From Phenylobacterium sp. (GTDB taxonomy: Bacteria > Pseudomonadota > Alphaproteobacteria > Caulobacterales > Caulobacteraceae), in assembly GCF_025351295.1 (NCBI RefSeq), contig NZ_JANXWD010000087.1:25785-89784 (forward strand): a stretch of 64,000 nt of DNA, read 5' to 3'. A program made the translations under genes and the position numbers. This document shows positions 5,628 to 53,984 of this stretch, piece after piece. A model generated the notes under the pieces. The model worked only from the letters and a program-made list of their open reading frames with translations. It had not been told where the DNA came from and did not search any database. The first letter of the stretch is position 1. Every line of letters starts with the position of its first letter.

Positions 5628-5778
5628 TTCCTCTTCCGCGAAGCGGGAGAGGGGGACCGTCGCCGAAGAGCCGATGGTGGAGAGGGCAGGCCTCAGGCTC
5701 CGCGGATCGTTTGCCCGCCCAGGACTCACAGACCGGTGCTTGCCCTCTCCACCCCTCTCCCATTGAATGGGAGAGGAA
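5628..5778. repeat. CCTCTCCC/GGGAGAGG hairpin doublet element
   Basis: Arms 5628-5688 and 5741-5778 are imperfect inverted copies; the right arm lacks the internal hairpin. Confidence 0.8.
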
Positions 5779-27744: not shown

Positions 27745-27930
27745 CTCCTCTCCCCCGCGAAGCGAGAGGGAAAGGGTAGGGAGAGGGTCGGCTCGGCGAC
27801 CGGTCTCCCACGACGGTCGGGCGAGGGCCCGCCCGCTCAGGATCCTGGTTCAAACCGGAGCGGCTACCGCGCAGTCCTGCGCCGACCCTCTCCCTGCCCT
27901 CTCCCTCTCCGCTTCGCGGGGGGAGAGGAG
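27745..27930. repeat. hairpin doublet element (CTCCTCTCCC/GGGAGAGGAG)
   Basis: Arms 27745-27792 and 27881-27930 are near-perfect inverted copies. Confidence 0.85.
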
Positions 27931-42135: not shown

Positions 42136-42849
42136 ATGATGGACAAGGCTCAGCCGCTCGCCGGCGTCTGGCGTTTCGCGCGACGGTTCGAGGCGCAGGT
42201 GCTGATCGGCCTGATCCTGGCGGCCGGCGCCCTGTGGGCTTTCCTGAACATCGGCGGCGAGATGGCCGACGGCGAGACCTCGACCATCGACCGGCGGCTG
42301 CTCCTGCTGCTGCGCACGCCCGGCGACCCCAGCAACCCGATCGGCTCGCGCAGCGTGGAGGAAGCCATGCGCGACATCACCGCCCTGGGCGGGACGGTGG
42401 TGGTCACCCTGGTGACGGTGGTGGCGGTGCTGACCTTCCTGTTCCACAAGAAGCGTCGCCACGGCCTGGTGATGGCGGGCGCCGTTCTGCTGGCCTGGGT
42501 GTCGAGCGAGGCCACCAAGGCGATCTACAACCGCCCACGGCCGGACCTGGTGCCGCACGGGGCCTACGTCTATTCGGCCAGCTTTCCGAGCGGGCACTCG
42601 ACCCTGGCGGCGGCGACCTATCTGACCCTCGCCATGCTGGTGGCGAGCCTGGAGACCCGGCGGCGCACCAAGGCGCTGGCTTATGGCCTGGCCGGGCTGA
42701 TGCTCACCGCCGTGGGGTTCAGCCGCGTCTACCTTGGCGTCCACTGGCCCAGCGACGTGCTGGCCGGATGGTGCCTCGGCGCGGTGTGGGCGCTGGCGGC
42801 CTGGATCGCGCTCAAGGCGGTCGGCGGTGAGACCCGCGGCCAGGGCTAG
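42136..42849 (+). CDS. PAP2 family phosphatase
   Basis: K....RPRP, SFPSGHS and SRVYLGVHWPSDV motifs. Confidence 0.93.
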   Translation: MMDKAQPLAGVWRFARRFEAQVLIGLILAAGALWAFLNIGGEMADGETSTIDRRLLLLLRTPGDPSNPIGSRSVEEAMRDITALGGTVVVTLVTVVAVLTFLFHKKRRHGLVMAGAVLLAWVSSEATKAIYNRPRPDLVPHGAYVYSASFPSGHSTLAAATYLTLAMLVASLETRRRTKALAYGLAGLMLTAVGFSRVYLGVHWPSDVLAGWCLGAVWALAAWIALKAVGGETRGQG

Positions 42850-44123
42850 GCGAACCCCACCAGGTCCGGCACGCGGCCGTTCCAGCCTGAGACCCGCTCG
42901 TAGGCCGCGCCCAGCGCGACCACGCCCGCCTCGTCGCGCGGCCCACCCAGGATCTGCAGGCCGGCGGGCAGGCCCTCGGCGGTCAGGCCGCAGGGCACGC
43001 TGATCCCCGGCAGGTCTAGGTAGTTGGCGGCTCGCGTCAGGCGGCTGAGCGGGGAGGTGGTCTCGTCGATGCTGTCCAGCGGCGGGGCAGCGATCGGGCA
43101 GGTGGGCGACAGCAGGCCGTCGTAGGCGGCGAGCCAGTCGTGGAACTCGACCTGGCCGGCGGCGCGCTCGCGGTGGACTTCGGCGAGGCGTTGGTCGCTG
43201 ACCTCGCGTCCGGCCTCGAACCGGCGGACGATCCAGGGATCCATGACCGCGCCATGGCGGGCGATGCGGTCCTTCCAGATGCGCCAGCCTTCGCCGGCCA
43301 TCAGCAGGCCGTTGGGCAGGAACGACTGGTCCAGCGCCTGGGGCGGCTGGACCATTTCGACGATCAGGCCGGCCCCGCGCAGCCGCTCCAGCGCCTCCAG
43401 ATAGAGCCGGCCCACCTCCGGATCGATCTCGCCCAGGCCGTGCAGCGGGATGGCGGCCAGGCGGCGGCCGCGCACGTCGGTGGCCAGGGCGGCCTCGGCG
43501 TCGAAGGTCCCGCGGCTGGCGGCAGCCCCGTCCGGACCGGAGATCACCGCCAGGGTTCGGGCGGCGGTCGCCACGTCGCGGGCCAGGGCGCCCACCGTGT
43601 CGAGGGCCGGCGCCAGGGGATGGACGCCGATCAGGCTCACCAGGCCGCGGCCGGGCTTGAGGCCGACCACGCCGCAGACCGCGGCGGGGATGCGGACCGA
43701 GCCGCCGGTGTCGCTGCCCAGCGCCGCGTCGCACAGCCCGGCCGCCACCGCCACGGCGGACCCGGAGGAGGAGCCGCCCGGCGCGCGATGGACCTGGGCG
43801 TCCCACGGGTTCCAGGGCGCGCCGACCGCGCGGTTGGTCCCCCAGCCGCCATAGGCGAGCTCGACGGTGTGGGTCTTGCCGACCACGCTCCAGCCGGCCT
43901 GCAGCAGGCGCTGCACCACGATGGCGTGGCGGGCGGGGTTCGGGTCCAGCGGCGCCCGGGCGCCGCCGCCGGTCGGAACGCCGGCGATGTCCATCAGGTC
44001 CTTGATGGCGACGGTCGACCCGTCCGCCGTCGCGCCAGCCAGCGGCGGGTCGAACACCTGGACGAAGGCCTTCAGGCGGCCATCGTAGCGGCGGATGCGG
44101 GCGAGCGCGTCGGCGGGCGTCAT
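42846..44123 (-). CDS. amidase-signature family amidase
   Basis: IKD, GGSSSGS and GSDTGGSVR motifs. Confidence 0.93.
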   Translation of the reverse strand: MTPADALARIRRYDGRLKAFVQVFDPPLAGATADGSTVAIKDLMDIAGVPTGGGARAPLDPNPARHAIVVQRLLQAGWSVVGKTHTVELAYGGWGTNRAVGAPWNPWDAQVHRAPGGSSSGSAVAVAAGLCDAALGSDTGGSVRIPAAVCGVVGLKPGRGLVSLIGVHPLAPALDTVGALARDVATAARTLAVISGPDGAAASRGTFDAEAALATDVRGRRLAAIPLHGLGEIDPEVGRLYLEALERLRGAGLIVEMVQPPQALDQSFLPNGLLMAGEGWRIWKDRIARHGAVMDPWIVRRFEAGREVSDQRLAEVHRERAAGQVEFHDWLAAYDGLLSPTCPIAAPPLDSIDETTSPLSRLTRAANYLDLPGISVPCGLTAEGLPAGLQILGGPRDEAGVVALGAAYERVSGWNGRVPDLVGFA

Positions 44124-44292
44124 TCCCCTCCCTTAATGGGGAGGGACCGCTCGCGAAAGCGAGCCGGGTGGGGAAGTGTGGGCCGGCCTGCCGATTTTGC
44201 TAAGTGGCCCCTTGCGAGGCGGCGTTTCGGCCCTCACAGCCCCACCCTGGCCGCTGGCGCGGCCTGTCCCTCCCCATTAAGGGAGGGAAATG
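44121..44292. repeat. hairpin doublet element containing both divergent start codons
   Basis: 44121-44147 and 44266-44292 are 26/27 inverted-identical and include the CAT/ATG codons. Confidence 0.9.
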
Positions 44293-45696
44293 AGCGCGAA
44301 CCTCTACGATCTCCTGGAGAGCCGGTTTCCGGCGGATCGCTCGAAAGCCTGCTTCCTGCTGAGCGATGGCTCGGCGATCAGCTACGGCGAACTGGAGCGG
44401 GGCGCCGCCCATGTCGCGGGCCGGCTGGTCGCCGAGGGTGTCGCGCCCGGCGACCGGGTGGCGCTGCAGGCGGAGAAGTCGGCCGCGGCGATCATGGTCT
44501 ACCTGGGGGTCCTGAAGGCCGGCGCGGTCTTCCTGCCGCTGAACCCGGCCTACACGGCGAGCGAGGTCGACTACTTCCTGGGCGACGCCGAACCTAAGGT
44601 GTTCGTCACGGACCCGCCGGCCTGGGTGAGCGAGGCGGTTGACGCGGCGCCGATGGAGACGACCGTTGCACGCGGGGCCGGTGACTTGGCCTGCCTGATC
44701 TACACCTCGGGCACCACCGGCCGCTCCAAAGGGGCCATGCTGAGCCATGGCGCGCTGGCGGCCAATGCGCTCGCCCTGCACGAGGCGTGGGGCTTCACGC
44801 CCGACGACGTGCTGCTGCACGCCCTGCCGATCTTCCACGTCCATGGCCTGTTCGTGGCCCTGCACTGCGCCCTGTTGAGCGGCTGTGCGATGGTCTGGCT
44901 GCCGAAGTTCGCCGACGCCGAGGTGCTGGCGGGGCTGGACCGCGCGACGGTGATGATGGGGGTGCCGACCTTCTACACCCGCCTGGTGGCCAATCCGGGG
45001 TTCACGCGGGCCAGGGCGCAGGGCGTGCGCCTGTTCGTCTGCGGCTCCGCGCCCCTGCTGCCCTCGACCTTCGTGGAGTTCGAAGAGCGCACCGGCCAGC
45101 GCATCCTGGAGCGCTATGGGATGAGCGAGGCGGTGATCATCACCACCAACCCGCTGGCGGGCGGTCGGCTGGCCGGCTCGGTGGGCTATCCGCTGCCCGG
45201 CGTCGAGCTTCGCATCGGCGGGCCGGACCAGACGGGTGTCATTGAGATCCGGGGCCCGAGCGTGTTCTCGGGCTACTGGCAGATGCCGGAGAAGACGACC
45301 GAGGACTTCACCGGCGACGGTTTCTTCATCACCGGCGACGTCGGGCGGCGCGATCCCGACGGCCGGGTGTGGATCTCCGGGCGAGCCAAGGACCTGATCA
45401 TCTCCGGCGGCTACAACGTCTATCCGAAAGAGGTCGAGCTGGTGCTCGACGAGCTGCCGGGCGTCGCCGAGAGCGCGGTGATCGGCTGCCCCCACAAGGA
45501 CTTCGGCGAGGGCGTGGTGGCGGTGGTTATGGGGACCGGCGACGAGGCGGCCATGATCGCCGAGGCCCGCCGGCAGCTGGCGGCCTACAAGGCGCCCAAG
45601 CGGATCGTGTTCGTCGACGAACTGCCGCGCAACGCCATGGGCAAGGTGCAGAAGAACCTGCTGCGCCAACAATACGAACACTTGTTCGAGGGCTGA
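44290..45696 (+). CDS. matB: malonyl-CoA synthetase-like acyl-CoA ligase
   Basis: YTSGTTGRSKG, HALPIFHVHGL, ERYGMSE and PRNAMGK motifs. Confidence 0.85.
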   Translation: MSANLYDLLESRFPADRSKACFLLSDGSAISYGELERGAAHVAGRLVAEGVAPGDRVALQAEKSAAAIMVYLGVLKAGAVFLPLNPAYTASEVDYFLGDAEPKVFVTDPPAWVSEAVDAAPMETTVARGAGDLACLIYTSGTTGRSKGAMLSHGALAANALALHEAWGFTPDDVLLHALPIFHVHGLFVALHCALLSGCAMVWLPKFADAEVLAGLDRATVMMGVPTFYTRLVANPGFTRARAQGVRLFVCGSAPLLPSTFVEFEERTGQRILERYGMSEAVIITTNPLAGGRLAGSVGYPLPGVELRIGGPDQTGVIEIRGPSVFSGYWQMPEKTTEDFTGDGFFITGDVGRRDPDGRVWISGRAKDLIISGGYNVYPKEVELVLDELPGVAESAVIGCPHKDFGEGVVAVVMGTGDEAAMIAEARRQLAAYKAPKRIVFVDELPRNAMGKVQKNLLRQQYEHLFEG

Positions 45697-45741: not shown

Positions 45742-46512
45742 ATGGACCTGCAGCTCACGGGCAAGACCGCGGTGATCACCGGCGCGACGCGCGGGATCGG
45801 GCGGGCCATCGCCGAGTGCTTCGCCGACGAGGGCGCCCATGTGGCGATCTGCGCGCGCAACCCCGAGCAGGTGGCCGAGACGGTCAAGGCGCTGGAGGCC
45901 AAGGGCGTCAAGGCGTTCGGCGCCGTGGTGGACATCGCCGACGGGCCGGCGCTGAAGGCCTTCATCGTCGAGGCGGGTGAGACCCTAGGCGGGATCGACA
46001 TCGTGGTCTCCAACGCCAGCGCCCTGGTGCAGGGCAACGCCGAGGACGCCTGGAAGGCGATGTTCGATATCGACATGATGGGCGCCGTGCGCACCTTCGA
46101 GGCGGCGCGCCCATTCCTGGAGCAGGCGGGTCAGGCGAAGGGCGACGCCTGCTTCCTGATCACCTCGTCGATCTCGGCGGCGGAGACCGACAACCCCAAC
46201 TCCTACGGGGCCATGAAGGCCGCCCTGATCCACTTTGCGAAGGGCGTGGCCCGCGAGAACGCGCCGAAGAAGTTGCGCTGCAACGTCGTCTCGCCCGGCA
46301 CGGTGTTTTTCGAGGGTGGGGCCTGGGGCAATGTGAAGGCGGGCATGCCGGCCTTCTTCGAGCAGATGATCAAGCGCAACCCGACCGGCCGCATGGCGAC
46401 GCCGGAAGAGATCGCGGCCGCGACCGTGTTCCTGGCCAGCCCGCGCTCGGCCTTCACCACCGGCATCAACATGGTGGTCGACGGGGCGATTTCGCGGCGA
46501 GCCAACTTCTGA
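45742..46512 (+). CDS. SDR family oxidoreductase
   Basis: TGATRGIG and YGAMK motifs. Confidence 0.92.
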   Translation: MDLQLTGKTAVITGATRGIGRAIAECFADEGAHVAICARNPEQVAETVKALEAKGVKAFGAVVDIADGPALKAFIVEAGETLGGIDIVVSNASALVQGNAEDAWKAMFDIDMMGAVRTFEAARPFLEQAGQAKGDACFLITSSISAAETDNPNSYGAMKAALIHFAKGVARENAPKKLRCNVVSPGTVFFEGGAWGNVKAGMPAFFEQMIKRNPTGRMATPEEIAAATVFLASPRSAFTTGINMVVDGAISRRANF

Positions 46513-47705
46513 TGGCGGGCGCCCTCGCCGGCCTCAAGGTGCTGGACTGCACCCACGTCATCGCCGGCGCCTATTGCTCGATGGTGCTGGCCGACCTGGG
46601 CGCCGACGTCGTCAAGATCGAGCCGCCGGCGGGGGAATCCACGCGGGGCATGCGGGGCGCGGGCGGCGGGTTCCGCGCCTTCGACTACGTCAATCGCAAC
46701 AAGCGCACGGTGGCGCTTGACCTCAGCACCGAGCGCGGCGCGGACGTGGTGCGCAAGCTGGCGCTGACGGCGGACGTCTTCGTGGAGAACTACCGGCCGG
46801 GGTCGATGGACCGCATGGGCCTGGGCTATGCGCGGCTGGCGGCGATCAATCCGCGGCTGGTCTATTGCTCGGTGTCGGGGTTCGGCCTGGACGGGCCCTA
46901 TCGCGAGCGCGGCGGCTTCGACCTGGTCACCCAGGCGATGAGCGGGATCATGAGCTTCGTCGGCGAGGCGGGGAGCGACAAGCCCTGCTCGACGGCGGTG
47001 CCGATCTCCGACCTCAACGCCGGGGTGTTCGGCGCGGTGGGCGTGCTGGCGGCCCTGCAGAGCCGGCACGCCACCGGCAAGGGCCAGCACGTCGAGACCT
47101 CGCTGCTGGAGTCCGCCCTGGCCTACACGATCTGGGAGACCGGCATGTTCCTGTCGACCGGCGAGGTGGCGGAGCGCAATGGCGCGCGCCATCGGCTGGC
47201 CGCGCCCTACGAGCCGCTGAAGACGGCGGACGGCCATATCGTGGTGGGCGTCAACAGCCAGCGACTGTGGAAACGGTTCTGCGAGGCGCTGGGCGATCCG
47301 GATCTCTGCGAGGACGCCGACTTCAACTCGCCCGGCGCTCGCATGAACAACCGCGACGCGCTGCAGGCGCGGATCGAGGCGGTGCTGGCGCGCGACACGA
47401 CGGCTGAGTGGCTGCCGCGGTTCGAGGCGGTGGGCGTGCCGGCCGGACCATTGAACACCATCGCCCAGGCCTGGGACGATCCCCAGATCAAGGCGCGCGG
47501 CCTGCTGGGCGAGGCGGGCGGACGGCGGTTCGTCAAGACGCCGATCAAGCTGCACGATACGCCCGTCGAGCTCGTCCGCGGCCCGGGCGAGGTCGGTGAA
47601 CACACCCGCGAGGTGCTGGCCGAGGCCGGATACTCCGCCACCGAGATCGAGGGCCTGGTCGCCGCCGGCGTCGCGGCCACACAGCGCAAGGAGGTCGCCC
47701 AGTGA
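46512..47705 (+). CDS. CaiB/BaiF family III CoA-transferase
   Basis: LADLGADVVKIE, NRNKR, ENYRPG and GGFD motifs. Confidence 0.93.
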   Translation: MAGALAGLKVLDCTHVIAGAYCSMVLADLGADVVKIEPPAGESTRGMRGAGGGFRAFDYVNRNKRTVALDLSTERGADVVRKLALTADVFVENYRPGSMDRMGLGYARLAAINPRLVYCSVSGFGLDGPYRERGGFDLVTQAMSGIMSFVGEAGSDKPCSTAVPISDLNAGVFGAVGVLAALQSRHATGKGQHVETSLLESALAYTIWETGMFLSTGEVAERNGARHRLAAPYEPLKTADGHIVVGVNSQRLWKRFCEALGDPDLCEDADFNSPGARMNNRDALQARIEAVLARDTTAEWLPRFEAVGVPAGPLNTIAQAWDDPQIKARGLLGEAGGRRFVKTPIKLHDTPVELVRGPGEVGEHTREVLAEAGYSATEIEGLVAAGVAATQRKEVAQ

Positions 47706-53853: not shown

Positions 53854-53984
53854 CCTACCCCCTCTGGGAGAAGTGGCCCGACAACCGAAGGTCGAGGGTC
53901 GATGGGGGAGGTGATCCTCGTCTGACACTTCCCCCATTGTCGCCCGCCTTCGGCTTTGGCGAAATTTCCCCCAAAGGGGGAAGG
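53854..53984. repeat. degenerate hairpin doublet element
   Basis: Arms 53854-53910 and 53929-53984 are imperfect inverted copies. Confidence 0.75.

What the first reader, a model, noticed from the sequence alone, without database searches (positions are those of the whole stretch)
44121..44292. One palindromic repeat element forms the entire divergent control region, including both start codons and both RBSs
Seen: CATTCCCCTCCCTTAATGGGGAGGGAC (44121-44147) and GTCCCTCCCCATTAAGGGAGGGAAATG (44266-44292) are inverted copies at 26 of 27 positions. The outer triplets are the ATGs of the amidase (minus) and the matB-like ligase (plus), each preceded by GGGAGGG. Each SD sits in the 3' strand of a local hairpin (CCCTCCCC-ATTAA-GGGAGGG). 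Inference: a repeat insertion has been domesticated as a symmetric translation-initiation cassette, giving matched structure-gated control (for example by temperature or helicase) of both genes; any promoters must lie in the spacer.
Basis: partly seen in the sequence, partly recalled or inferred. Interest (0 to 1): 0.7.

Follow-up and report, generated by a model that had tools for sequence, protein, structure and literature searches.

The report
Mobile hairpin repeat fills a promoter gap
The palindrome between the amidase and matB-like genes is one copy of a mobile hairpin-repeat family of Phenylobacterium whose purine-rich ends sit where ribosome-binding sites belong, so it is a tolerated or co-opted insertion and not a purpose-built switch, and longer family copies carry a DUF559 endonuclease gene.

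Summary
44121-44147 and 44266-44292 are inverted copies (26/27), and the whole 172 nt is a long palindrome touching both start codons. It is not a locus-specific cassette. It is one of about 48 copies (about 110 arms) of a ~145-nt hairpin-doublet repeat in this Phenylobacterium MAG.

Family homology covers 44123-44290 only, so the ATGs belong to the genes. GGGAGGG-AAA is the family's normal terminus.

Relatives show a native 44-46-nt spacer. The element replaces it in four species, one species keeps a truncated copy, and another carries an unrelated palindromic element.

Arms are 86-96% identical between species and the centre 30-58%, so a conserved spacer promoter is unlikely. Both genes stay under purifying selection (dN/dS about 0.2).

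Element ends also sit 0-4 nt before the starts of surE, rpiA, yicC and single-copy ligA. The ends therefore work as, or are tolerated as, portable ribosome-binding regions.

Structure gating is untested. The hairpin is far too stable for a thermometer and is equally conserved at gene 3' ends.

Two long family copies carry a DUF559 endonuclease gene between their arms. DUF559 genes across Alphaproteobacteria commonly have arms of the same build.

The parts
44123..44290 (.). One 168-nt copy of the GGGGAGGG hairpin-doublet repeat family (typical copies are 132-146 nt; this one has a longer centre).
   Evidence: nhmmer hits from other copies span query positions 3-170 of 44121-44292. The arm HMM hits both ends (C151:69907 and 70074 = window 44123 and 44290). 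It is listed as the 168-nt doublet.
44126..44145 (-). Left outer hairpin: stem 44126-44132 / 44139-44145. On the amidase mRNA strand it reads CCCTCCCC-ATTAA-GGGAGGGG, followed by A and then AUG. GGGAGGGG is the SD-like motif.
   Evidence: Sequence. Fold of 44103-44151(-) gives about -15 kcal/mol for the local hairpin (centroid -15.1; MFE -19.7 with an extended stem), with the purine tract paired. It stays closed to above 75 C in the model.
44149..44173 (.). Left inner hairpin GCTCGC-GAAA-GCGAGC (44149-44164) plus the G-block GGGTGGGG (44166-44173).
   Evidence: Sequence. The inner hairpin covaries across 92 distinct arms, paired in 89-92 of 92 with 3-4 pair types per position. The same variant occurs in all four orthologous copies.
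44174..44239 (.). Centre or linker. It is not conserved between orthologous copies, has no GANTC site, and holds an AT-richer GATTTTGCTAAGTGG.
   Evidence: 30-58% pairwise identity among four species against 86-96% for the arms. GANTC is present in 27/39 other copies but absent here. No promoter-like site by consensus scan.
44240..44264 (.). Right C-block CCCCACCC (44240-44247) plus the right inner hairpin GGCCGC-TGGC-GCGGCC (44249-44264).
   Evidence: Sequence. The variant is shared by the orthologous copies in G004 and G026, and by G015 with a different loop.
44268..44287 (+). Right outer hairpin: stem 44268-44274 / 44281-44287, loop CATTAA. GGGAGGG is the SD-like motif, followed by AA and then the matB AUG.
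   Evidence: Sequence. Fold of 44262-44310(+) is -17.4 kcal/mol with GGGAGGG paired. P(unpaired) is 0.0007 at 37 C.
42846..44123 (-). Amidase-signature family gene (425 aa). The start ATG is at 44123-44121.
   Evidence: ORF and translation. NCBIfam amidase models match below their cut-offs, e.g. PRK08310 residues 19-405 to profile 9-387. The N-terminus is conserved from residue 1 in 10 orthologues. dN/dS is 0.11-0.22.
44290..45696 (+). Malonyl-CoA synthase-like (MatB-like) acyl-CoA ligase gene (468 aa), first gene of a + strand run with an SDR gene (45742-46512) and a family III CoA-transferase gene (46512-47705).
   Evidence: NF005702 malonyl-CoA synthase scores 693.8 bits, above its cut-off of 558. 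The N-terminus is conserved in orthologues. dN/dS is 0.16-0.22. Neighbours named by Pfam.

Best explanation
The 172-nt palindrome is one copy (44123-44290) of a dispersed, mobile hairpin-doublet repeat family of Phenylobacterium, comparable to REPINs or MITEs. Each arm reads, from outside in: AAA/TTT, an outer hairpin CCCTCCC(C)-loop-GGG(G)AGGG, a covarying inner hairpin, and a GGGTGGGG block. A copy entered the amidase-matB intergenic region in an ancestor of at least four species and now occupies it completely in place of the native 44-46-nt divergent spacer. The outward-facing strand of every family terminus is GGGAGGG-AAA. Any start codon next to an element end therefore gets a strong SD-like sequence (AAGGGAGG) 2-4 nt upstream. 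This happens here on both sides, and also at surE, rpiA, yicC and ligA elsewhere in the genome. Both genes must now be expressed from 5' regions made of repeat DNA. The element end most likely serves as the ribosome-binding region, or is at least tolerated there. The symmetry, the hairpins and their conservation are properties of the repeat itself, not an evolved two-gene switch. The family appears to be the ORF-less form of longer elements whose identical arms enclose a DUF559 (Vsr-like PD-(D/E)XK) endonuclease gene. Shown: family membership, replacement of the native spacer, inheritance with conserved arms, purifying selection on both genes, repeated abutment to start codons, and the DUF559 association. 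Inferred: use of GGGAGGG as the SD, how the hairpin is overcome, where the promoters are, and the role of DUF559 in mobility.
For: Family: 95 exact hairpin matches against 0 for the control pattern, 39 full-length loci, 115 arm hits, and 46 doublets of 122-187 nt plus 17 single arms. The hairpin is present in 19/41 Phenylobacterium genomes at 1-46 matches each, and sporadically in 8/36 genera of the order. The inner hairpin shows compensatory variation across 92 arms. Locus history: relatives have a 44-46-nt spacer with conserved TGACTATCGCG...CGCGCTAGGTAG that is not significantly similar to the element. G000, G004, G015 and G026 have the element flush with both ATGs and with the same inner-hairpin variants. 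Arms are 86-96% identical, against 37-46% difference at 4-fold sites of the flanking genes, and centres are 30-58% identical. Gene function is kept: dN/dS is 0.16-0.22 between element-bearing species. The SD-like ends are a general feature. Of 111 arm ends, 30 face a gene start, 12 of them within 14 nt. Four are confirmed by profile coordinates: SurE (GTG directly after AAA), RpiA (ATG directly after AAA), LigA (GTG 1 nt after AAA) and YicC (ATG 4 nt after AAA). Empty sites in relatives show that the element sits in former overlapping stop/start junctions, and that it cut off the first 5 codons of single-copy ligA. DUF559: C138:2867-3337 and C151:4194-4749 have full family arms around a DUF559 ORF, and all 7 DUF559 loci of the genome adjoin such arms. 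24/30 DUF559 loci in the genus and 17/29 in other alphaproteobacterial genera have flanking inverted arms of the same build. The DUF559 tree matches arm type. The hairpin family is found only in DUF559-positive genomes (19/19 against 0/11, p = 2.5e-4).
Against: There are no transcript or ribosome data for this MAG or for any start-abutting copy, so use of GGGAGGG as an SD is inferred. In the related Caulobacter crescentus 75% of CDSs lack an SD, and leaderless, non-SD and SD mRNAs are translated equally well (PMC4117421), so an SD may not be needed. If the 5' strand is transcribed, the SD is more than 99% sequestered, which should inhibit initiation strongly. The SD-to-AUG spacing is short at 3-4 nt. 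No target-site duplication and no parent IS transposase were found, and the two Y1/RAYT-like genes are flanked by a different repeat. The C138 DUF559 ORF has no canonical start codon before its conserved N-terminal motif, and the C151 copy has an in-frame stop. The same intergenic sites are colonised by several repeat families, so independent insertions cannot be fully excluded.
Confidence: 0.7

Rival explanations
1. First reader's reading. The repeat has been domesticated as a symmetric translation-initiation cassette. Each SD is locked in a hairpin that is opened by temperature, a helicase or another factor, giving matched control of amidase and MatB.
For: Both SD-like motifs are the 3' strands of stable local hairpins directly before the AUGs. 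The outer stems are identical in four species while the centre has diverged. The two genes could plausibly act in one pathway (amidase plus malonyl-CoA synthase-like ligase).
Against: The same hairpins, equally conserved, occur at about 110 arm ends, most of them behind stop codons. The modelled hairpin does not open below 75 C. G036 lost the matB-side arm but keeps an intact matB. Element-free relatives run the same gene pair from a 44-nt spacer without any such hairpins. The arms are conserved over about 54 nt, well beyond the SD hairpin.
Confidence: 0.08
2. The hairpins and GGGAGGG are irrelevant at the RNA level. Outward promoters in the arms, with for example the loop CATTAA as a -10-like box, start transcription at or within a few bases of the ATG, giving leaderless or very short-leader mRNAs.
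For: CATTAA ends 9 nt before the A of the matB ATG, so a start about 7 nt downstream of it would leave a leader of only 2-3 nt (my reading). Leaderless mRNAs make up 9.6% of CDSs in Caulobacter crescentus and are translated efficiently (PMC4117421). This would explain how essential ligA tolerates the same arrangement. The native 44-nt spacer is also too short for two leaders.
Against: No sigma-70-like promoter was found in 43800-44600. CATTAA/CATGAA is a weak -10, and no -35 match lies at proper spacing in the arm consensus (my reading). Most copies face stop codons, where an outward promoter would give antisense transcription.
Confidence: 0.15
3. The four species acquired their copies independently, because this intergenic region is an insertion hot spot. 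On this view the conserved arms reflect recent insertion, not long-term retention.
For: The same site holds an unrelated 206-nt palindromic element in another MAG (L038) and a hairpin of a sister family in G020. Other junctions (surE, rpiA, C100:35190) carry different repeat families in different species. The matB tree does not resolve the element-bearing species as one clade.
Against: All four copies share the same left (GCTCGC-GAAA-GCGAGC) and right (GGCCGC-N4-GCGGCC) inner-hairpin variants and the subfamily-specific ATTAA/GGGAGGG outer hairpin, although inner hairpins vary widely among copies within one genome. The centres keep patchy similarity (G000 to G004 57%). The G036 remnant is the same left arm.
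Confidence: 0.1

Closest known systems
REPINs / REP doublets (Bertels & Rainey 2011; PMC3116915, PMC3337134)
   Same: Two hairpin-forming repeats in inverted orientation around a short spacer. Tens to hundreds of extragenic copies, with singlets as well as doublets. The elements persist and are inherited at orthologous sites. Hairpin structure is conserved by covariation.
   Different: No RAYT flanked by these hairpins was found; the two Y1 transposase-like genes carry a different repeat. Arms are longer (about 54 nt, two hairpins plus a G-block) and there is no GTAG or CGTC tag. Long copies enclose a DUF559 endonuclease gene, not a tyrosine transposase gene.
Caulobacter CcrM-associated intergenic repeats, CIR1-4 (Chen & Shapiro 2003, as summarised in PMC2229807 and PMC10969869)
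   Same: Same bacterial order. About 110 bp and strictly intergenic. Two long inverted-repeat arms joined by a linker. No known transposase. A GANTC site is frequent, found in 27/39 copies here.
   Different: The window copy has no GANTC. No SD-like termini or DUF559 link are reported for CIR in the reviews I read.
Neisseria REP2 (CREN) and Borrelia IR-A/IR-B repeats (PMC3184786)
   Same: Dispersed repeats that lie immediately upstream of genes and supply their ribosome-binding site, so several genes share a repeat-derived 5' region.
   Different: REP2 and IR carry a promoter, an RBS and the ATG in one orientation, and are not terminal-inverted-repeat palindromes. Here the ATG is not part of the repeat, no promoter was detected, both ends can serve, and most copies sit after stop codons.
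Correia/nemis elements of Neisseria and ERIC elements of enterobacteria (PMC2229807, PMC3184786; RNase III processing recalled from my own knowledge of De Gregorio et al.)
   Same: 100-160-bp MITE-like palindromes co-transcribed with neighbouring genes. They fold into long hairpins and can alter expression of flanking genes.
   Different: Those elements have TA target duplications and IS-like TIRs, and the Correia elements carry outward promoters and IHF sites. None of these was found here.
SD-sequestering RNA thermometers (ROSE, fourU; my own knowledge)
   Same: The SD is paired in a hairpin directly before the start codon.
   Different: Thermometer stems are weak and mismatched and melt at 30-42 C. 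This stem of 7-8 consecutive pairs, nearly all G-C, stays closed above 75 C in the model.
Vsr / DUF559 clan nucleases, including the homing endonuclease I-Bth0305I (PMC3424549, PMC3239194) and Caulobacter VsrA (PMC12907096)
   Same: The ORF inside the long family copies is a DUF559 domain protein (112 bits). The clan contains a proven mobility (homing) endonuclease.
   Different: Known members are mismatch-repair nickases or intron-encoded homing enzymes. I found no report of DUF559 genes framed by palindromic repeat arms.

Membership tests
REPIN (REP doublet mobilised by a RAYT) | Two REP-like hairpins in inverted orientation separated by a short spacer | tested here: met
   46 doublets of 122-187 nt, each arm with conserved hairpins. 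The window copy is 168 nt.
REPIN (REP doublet mobilised by a RAYT) | High-copy, extragenic, with singlets also present | tested here: met
   115 arm hits and 17 unpaired arms. 95 of 111 ends lie within 120 nt of a gene boundary and outside the ORF.
REPIN (REP doublet mobilised by a RAYT) | A cognate RAYT (Y1 transposase) gene flanked by the same REPs | tested here: not met
   Two PF01797 matches (C74, C87). The C74 gene is flanked by the repeat GTAAACTGTCACCGAAGTAG. The arm HMM finds no family arm beside either gene (none on C74; the only C87 arms lie about 9 kb away).
MITE (non-autonomous derivative of an IS) | Terminal inverted repeats and small size (about 100-400 bp) | tested here: met
   The ~54-nt arms are inverted copies and elements are 122-187 nt.
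MITE (non-autonomous derivative of an IS) | Target-site duplication | tested here: inconclusive
   No consistent direct repeat in 39 flank pairs. Filled/empty comparisons show replaced native sequence, with a possible GTGAG duplication at surE only.
MITE (non-autonomous derivative of an IS) | A longer autonomous element with the same TIRs encoding a transposase | tested here: inconclusive
   Two long copies with the same arms exist, but they encode a DUF559 nuclease, not a known transposase. One lacks a canonical start codon and one has a stop.
CIR (Caulobacter CcrM-associated intergenic repeats) | Sequence homology to the CIR1-4 consensus | not testable with these tools
   Chen & Shapiro 2003 (PMC166474) is not held, and no CIR sequence is given in the reviews I read.
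CIR (Caulobacter CcrM-associated intergenic repeats) | A conserved GANTC methylation site within the repeat | tested here: not met
   The window copy has none. 27/39 other family copies have one.
Neisseria REP2-type 5' cassette | The repeat itself contains promoter, RBS and ATG | tested here: not met
   An RBS-like motif is present. The ATG lies outside the family homology. No promoter was found by consensus scan, and the centre is not conserved.
RNA thermometer | The SD-sequestering stem melts in the physiological temperature range | tested here: not met
   P(unpaired) of GGGAGGG is 0.0007-0.01 at 37 C and 0.001-0.013 at 45 C. The stem is still closed at 75 C (a thermodynamic model only).
Rfam Whalefall-1 RNA (RF01762) | Score at or above the gathering threshold of 37 bits | tested here: not met
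   15-24 bits for the window arms and 29-32 bits for canonical arms.
DUF559 (PF04480) nuclease, for the ORF in long family copies | Pfam score above the cut-off of 20.6 bits over nearly the full profile | tested here: met
   C138:2945-3265 scores 112 bits over profile 4-108/109. C151:4321-4641 scores 98.6 bits with one TAG.

The most novel reading that the evidence does not exclude
The hairpin doublets are the non-autonomous form of a widespread alphaproteobacterial mobile element whose autonomous form is 'arm - DUF559 endonuclease - arm'. On this view DUF559 proteins are the mobilising or homing nucleases of a CIR/REP-like repeat superfamily. Its purine-rich termini act as portable ribosome-binding sites, which lets the elements settle in operon junctions and even in the first codons of essential genes such as ligA. 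The amidase-matB region would then be a double use of such a terminus.
Probability: 0.4. Interest if true: 0.7.

Novelty: new variant of a known kind. Interest (0 to 1): 0.5.

Why it matters
For this locus the result is deflationary. A striking symmetric 'control region' is explained by a mobile repeat whose ends happen to look like ribosome-binding sites.

The family itself is worth attention for three reasons.

First, repeat ends directly adjoin the start codons of at least six genes, one of them single-copy ligA. Either the ends are working ribosome-binding sites despite a very stable hairpin, or translation initiation in this lineage is remarkably insensitive to structure. Both possibilities are easy to test with reporters.

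Second, several unrelated palindromic families colonise the same gene junctions in different species. That points to targeting of gene boundaries.

Third, the consistent framing of DUF559 endonuclease genes by arms of the same build gives a concrete candidate partner for repeats such as CIR, which have had no known mobilising enzyme. The framing holds in Phenylobacterium and in 17 of 29 loci from other alphaproteobacterial genera. It also suggests a function for a large domain family of unknown function.

Tried and rejected
1. RNA evidence. No RNA runs hold this MAG's locus; only sediment metagenome DNA does. None hold a G031 copy. Metatranscriptomes hold a G034 copy, but only as contigs and at a convergent 3' site, so I did not lay them.

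2. Rfam. Only spurious miRNA-precursor hits to the long hairpin and sub-threshold Whalefall-1 hits.

3. RAYT as the mobiliser. Two Y1-like genes exist, but no family arm lies beside either; the C74 gene carries a different repeat.

4. Promoters. The sigma-70 consensus scan found nothing. My by-eye matches to the Caulobacter -10 motif in the G000 centre are not conserved in the orthologues, so I dropped them.

5. The idea that the 44-nt 'empty' spacer is a decayed arm. Local alignment is no better than shuffles (p = 0.18-0.26).

6. The idea that the insertion truncated the amidase N-terminus. Orthologues without the element start at the same ATG.

7. RNA thermometer. Rejected by the melting model.

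8. CIR homology. The source paper is not held.

9. Two apparent start-abutting cases are not counted: C35:17841 is a shadow ORF, and the C95:104695 and C100:45069 starts are not supported by profile coordinates.

10. Earlier scan notes by sequence returned nothing.
Full report
**1. Observation**

The two 27-mers are present as described and are 26/27 inverted copies. Their 20-nt core occurs exactly twice in the window, against none expected. The symmetry runs much further, with 66-nt arms (44120-44185 / 44228-44293) at 82% complementarity. The whole stretch folds at -136.5 kcal/mol, z = -12.3.

The outer triplets are the ATGs of a 425-aa amidase-family ORF (42846-44123, minus) and a 468-aa malonyl-CoA synthase-like ligase ORF (44290-45696, plus). 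Each GGGAGGG is the 3' strand of a local 7-8-bp hairpin worth about -15 kcal/mol.

**2. It is a member of a large repeat family**

The hairpin pattern CCCTCCCC-N5-GGGNAGGG has 95 matches in the window's own genome and none for the control pattern. That genome is 4.6 Mb, 70% GC, in 167 contigs. A search with the element finds 39 full-length loci. A profile of the arms finds 115 arms, which form 46 doublets of 122-187 nt plus 17 single arms.

The consensus is TTTCCCTCCCCTTCATGGGGAGGGAC-[inner hairpin]-GGGTGGGG ... CCCCACCC-[inner hairpin]-GTCCCTCCCCATGAAGGGGAGGGAAA. The inner hairpin differs in sequence between copies but stays paired in 89-92 of 92 distinct arms, with three to four pair types per position. 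The structure is therefore under selection.

The element is thus 44123-44290, and the CA/TG of the two start codons is flanking gene sequence.

Record titles of related loci place the genome in Phenylobacterium. The hairpin occurs in 19 of 41 genomes of the genus at 1-46 exact matches, and sporadically in 8 of 36 genera of the order.

**3. History of this locus**

Orthologous amidase-matB pairs were recovered from 11 genomes. They fall into these groups:

- Four have a 44-46-nt spacer with a conserved TGACTATCGCG...CGCGCTAGGTAG core. It is not significantly similar to the element.
- G000, G004, G015 and G026 have the element flush with both ATGs and no trace of that spacer.
- G036 keeps only the first ~36 nt of the element.
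- One MAG (L038) has an unrelated 206-nt palindromic element.
- G020 has a 51-nt spacer with a hairpin of a sister family.

Both protein N-termini are the same in all of these genomes, so the start codons are correct.

The four full copies share the same left and right inner-hairpin variants. Their arms are 86-96% identical, while 4-fold sites of the flanking genes differ by 37-46% and the element centres are only 30-58% identical. The simplest reading is one old insertion with constrained arms and a free-drifting centre. Independent insertion at a hot spot cannot be fully excluded, because the matB tree is unresolved.

Both genes remain under purifying selection among element carriers, with dN/dS 0.16-0.22. 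They are therefore expressed with the element as their only upstream DNA.

**4. The SD-like end is a family trait that several genes use**

Of 111 arm ends, 65 face the stop codon of a converging gene. Sixty of those lie 3-16 nt from the last G of GGGGAGGG. Another 30 ends face a gene start, 12 of them within 14 nt.

After removing doubtful ORFs, four further starts are confirmed by profile coordinates:

| Gene | Start codon | Position relative to the element's terminal AAA |
|---|---|---|
| surE | GTG | directly after |
| rpiA | ATG | directly after |
| ligA | GTG | 1 nt after |
| yicC-family | ATG | 4 nt after |

ligA, surE and rpiA are single-copy in the assembly.

Empty sites in relatives show where the element landed:

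- At surE and rpiA it sits in former overlapping or near-overlapping stop/start junctions.
- At ligA it removed the first five codons, and a new GTG next to the element end is used.
- At C45:26028 it sits between convergent genes that previously had no spacer at all.
- At C100:35190 it replaced a small native hairpin.

The same junctions carry other palindromic families in other species. 'The element forms the whole intergenic region' is therefore the rule for this family, not a peculiarity of the amidase-matB pair.

**5. How it most likely works here**

Shown: both genes' 5' regions consist of repeat DNA. The only SD-like sequence is the repeat terminus, AAGGGAGG, which can form up to 8 pairs with the anti-SD by my reading. 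It lies 3-4 nt before the AUG.

Inferred: this terminus serves as, or is tolerated as, the ribosome-binding region.

The open problem is the hairpin. If its 5' strand is transcribed, GGGAGGG is more than 99% paired at 10-45 C and still at least 95% paired at 75 C in the model. This rules out a thermometer and would normally block initiation. Three ways out remain:

- processing or unwinding of the hairpin;
- a transcription start inside or after the hairpin, giving a leaderless or short-leader mRNA;
- low but sufficient expression.

In Caulobacter crescentus 75% of CDSs lack an SD, 9.6% are leaderless, and the classes are translated equally well (PMC4117421). The second route is therefore realistic. 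I found no promoter by consensus scan.

The outer hairpin is equally conserved at copies that face stop codons, and G036 has lost the matB-side arm without losing matB. I therefore see no evidence for an evolved, matched gate.

**6. What the element is: the DUF559 link**

Two 'wide' family copies, C138:2867-3337 and C151:4194-4749, have complete arms enclosing a DUF559 ORF of about 110 aa. The domain is PF04480, Vsr-like PD-(D/E)XK, and the ORFs score 112 and 99 bits. The second has one in-frame stop. All seven DUF559 loci of the genome lie inside or beside arms of this or sister families.

- In the genus, 24 of 30 sampled DUF559 loci have flanking inverted arms of the same build: a pyrimidine-loop-purine hairpin, an inner hairpin and a G-block.
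- The DUF559 tree is congruent with arm type. The GGGGAGGG-arm genes form a clade with 97/96 support, and 12 label changes are needed against 18 in shuffles, reached in 0 of 200.
- The hairpin family occurs only in DUF559-positive genomes (19/19 against 0/11, Fisher p = 2.5e-4, rho = 0.70). Relatedness is not corrected for.
- In 100 other alphaproteobacterial genera, 17 of 29 DUF559 loci show the same architecture, including one in a locus of only 39% GC.

The Vsr/DUF559 clan includes a proven homing endonuclease (PMC3424549, PMC3239194). Two readings fit. Either the doublets are ORF-less derivatives of DUF559-carrying elements, or DUF559 genes home into doublets. I found no paper linking DUF559 to palindromic repeats, but the library searched is partial.

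**7. Comparison with known systems**

The family works like REPINs or MITEs in form and population behaviour. It fails the RAYT criterion: neither of the two Y1-like genes has a family arm beside it, and the C74 gene is flanked by a different repeat. It also shows no clear target duplication.

It resembles the Caulobacter CIR repeats in host lineage, size, two-arm build and frequent GANTC site. Homology could not be tested because the CIR paper is not held.

Repeats that supply an RBS to downstream genes are known, namely Neisseria REP2 and Borrelia IR (PMC3184786), and REP ends that supply stop codons are known too (PMC3733652). Those are not two-ended palindromes, and REP2 includes the promoter and the ATG.

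Rfam has no matching family. The arms score 15-32 bits against Whalefall-1, below its 37-bit threshold.

**8. Verdict**

This is a repeat-derived 5' region for two divergent genes, conserved in four species. Its symmetry and hairpins are inherited from a mobile family and were not evolved for control. Gating is untested and, for temperature, unlikely.

The wider points are moderately novel and directly testable: portable SD-like termini used even by ligA, junction hot spots shared by several families, and the DUF559 association.

Noticed in passing
G000:C138:2867-3337 and G000:C151:4194-4749 (same contig as the window, about 21 kb upstream of its start): Two long copies of the same repeat family enclose a DUF559 (PF04480, Vsr-like) endonuclease ORF between complete arms. 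All 7 DUF559 loci of the genome adjoin such arms. The pattern holds in 24/30 loci of the genus and 17/29 loci of other alphaproteobacterial genera, and the nuclease tree tracks arm type.
   Followed up: yes
G000:C87:9534-9676 (ligA), C18:8099-8242 (surE), C35:17699-17843 (rpiA), C57:33951-34092 (yicC family): Family copies sit in former overlapping stop/start junctions. At ligA the element removed the first five codons, and a new GTG 1 nt beyond the element end is the only possible start of the single-copy gene.
   Followed up: yes
Loci L080-L088, L038 (orthologous junctions in G004, G015, G023, G026, G031, G036 and a further MAG): The same gene junctions (amidase-matB, surE, rpiA, C100:35190) are occupied by different, unrelated palindromic repeat families in different Phenylobacterium species. 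This suggests targeting of gene boundaries or strong filtering for them.
   Followed up: partly
window 5628-5778, 19107-19240, 27745-27930, 53854-53984: Sister hairpin-doublet families with other pyrimidine/purine outer hairpins (GGGAGAGGAA, GGGGGAGAGGAG, GGGGGAAGG). At 53984 the end GGGGGAAGG is followed by cgag and an ATG, which may be another repeat-derived SD.
   Followed up: no
L035 (G036) amidase-matB spacer; L068 (G036:C58) at the locus orthologous to G000:C44:2890-3033: G036 has single hairpins or truncated arms where G000 has full doublets. This fits deletion between the two near-identical outer hairpins, or separate singlet insertion.
   Followed up: partly
L039, L040, L041, L046 (element-free amidase-matB spacers): The native 44-46-nt divergent spacer has a conserved imperfect palindrome, TGACTATCGCG...CGCGCTAGGTAG. 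It is too short for two leaders, so it may hold overlapping promoters for leaderless mRNAs and/or an operator.
   Followed up: no
window 44122-44175 and 44238-44291; L003, L011, L014: The arms score 15-32 bits against Rfam Whalefall-1 (RF01762, threshold 37 bits). That metagenome-only 'RNA motif' may be an arm of a related repeat.
   Followed up: partly
G000:C74:1392-2114 and flanks: A RAYT-like Y1 transposase gene is flanked on both sides by a different repeat (GTAAACTGTCACCGAAGTAG). It may be a separate REP/RAYT-type system.
   Followed up: no
39 full-length family copies in G000: 27 of 39 copies carry a GANTC (CcrM) site, mostly as GACTC in the inner hairpin or centre, as described for Caulobacter CIR repeats. 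The window copy has none.
   Followed up: partly
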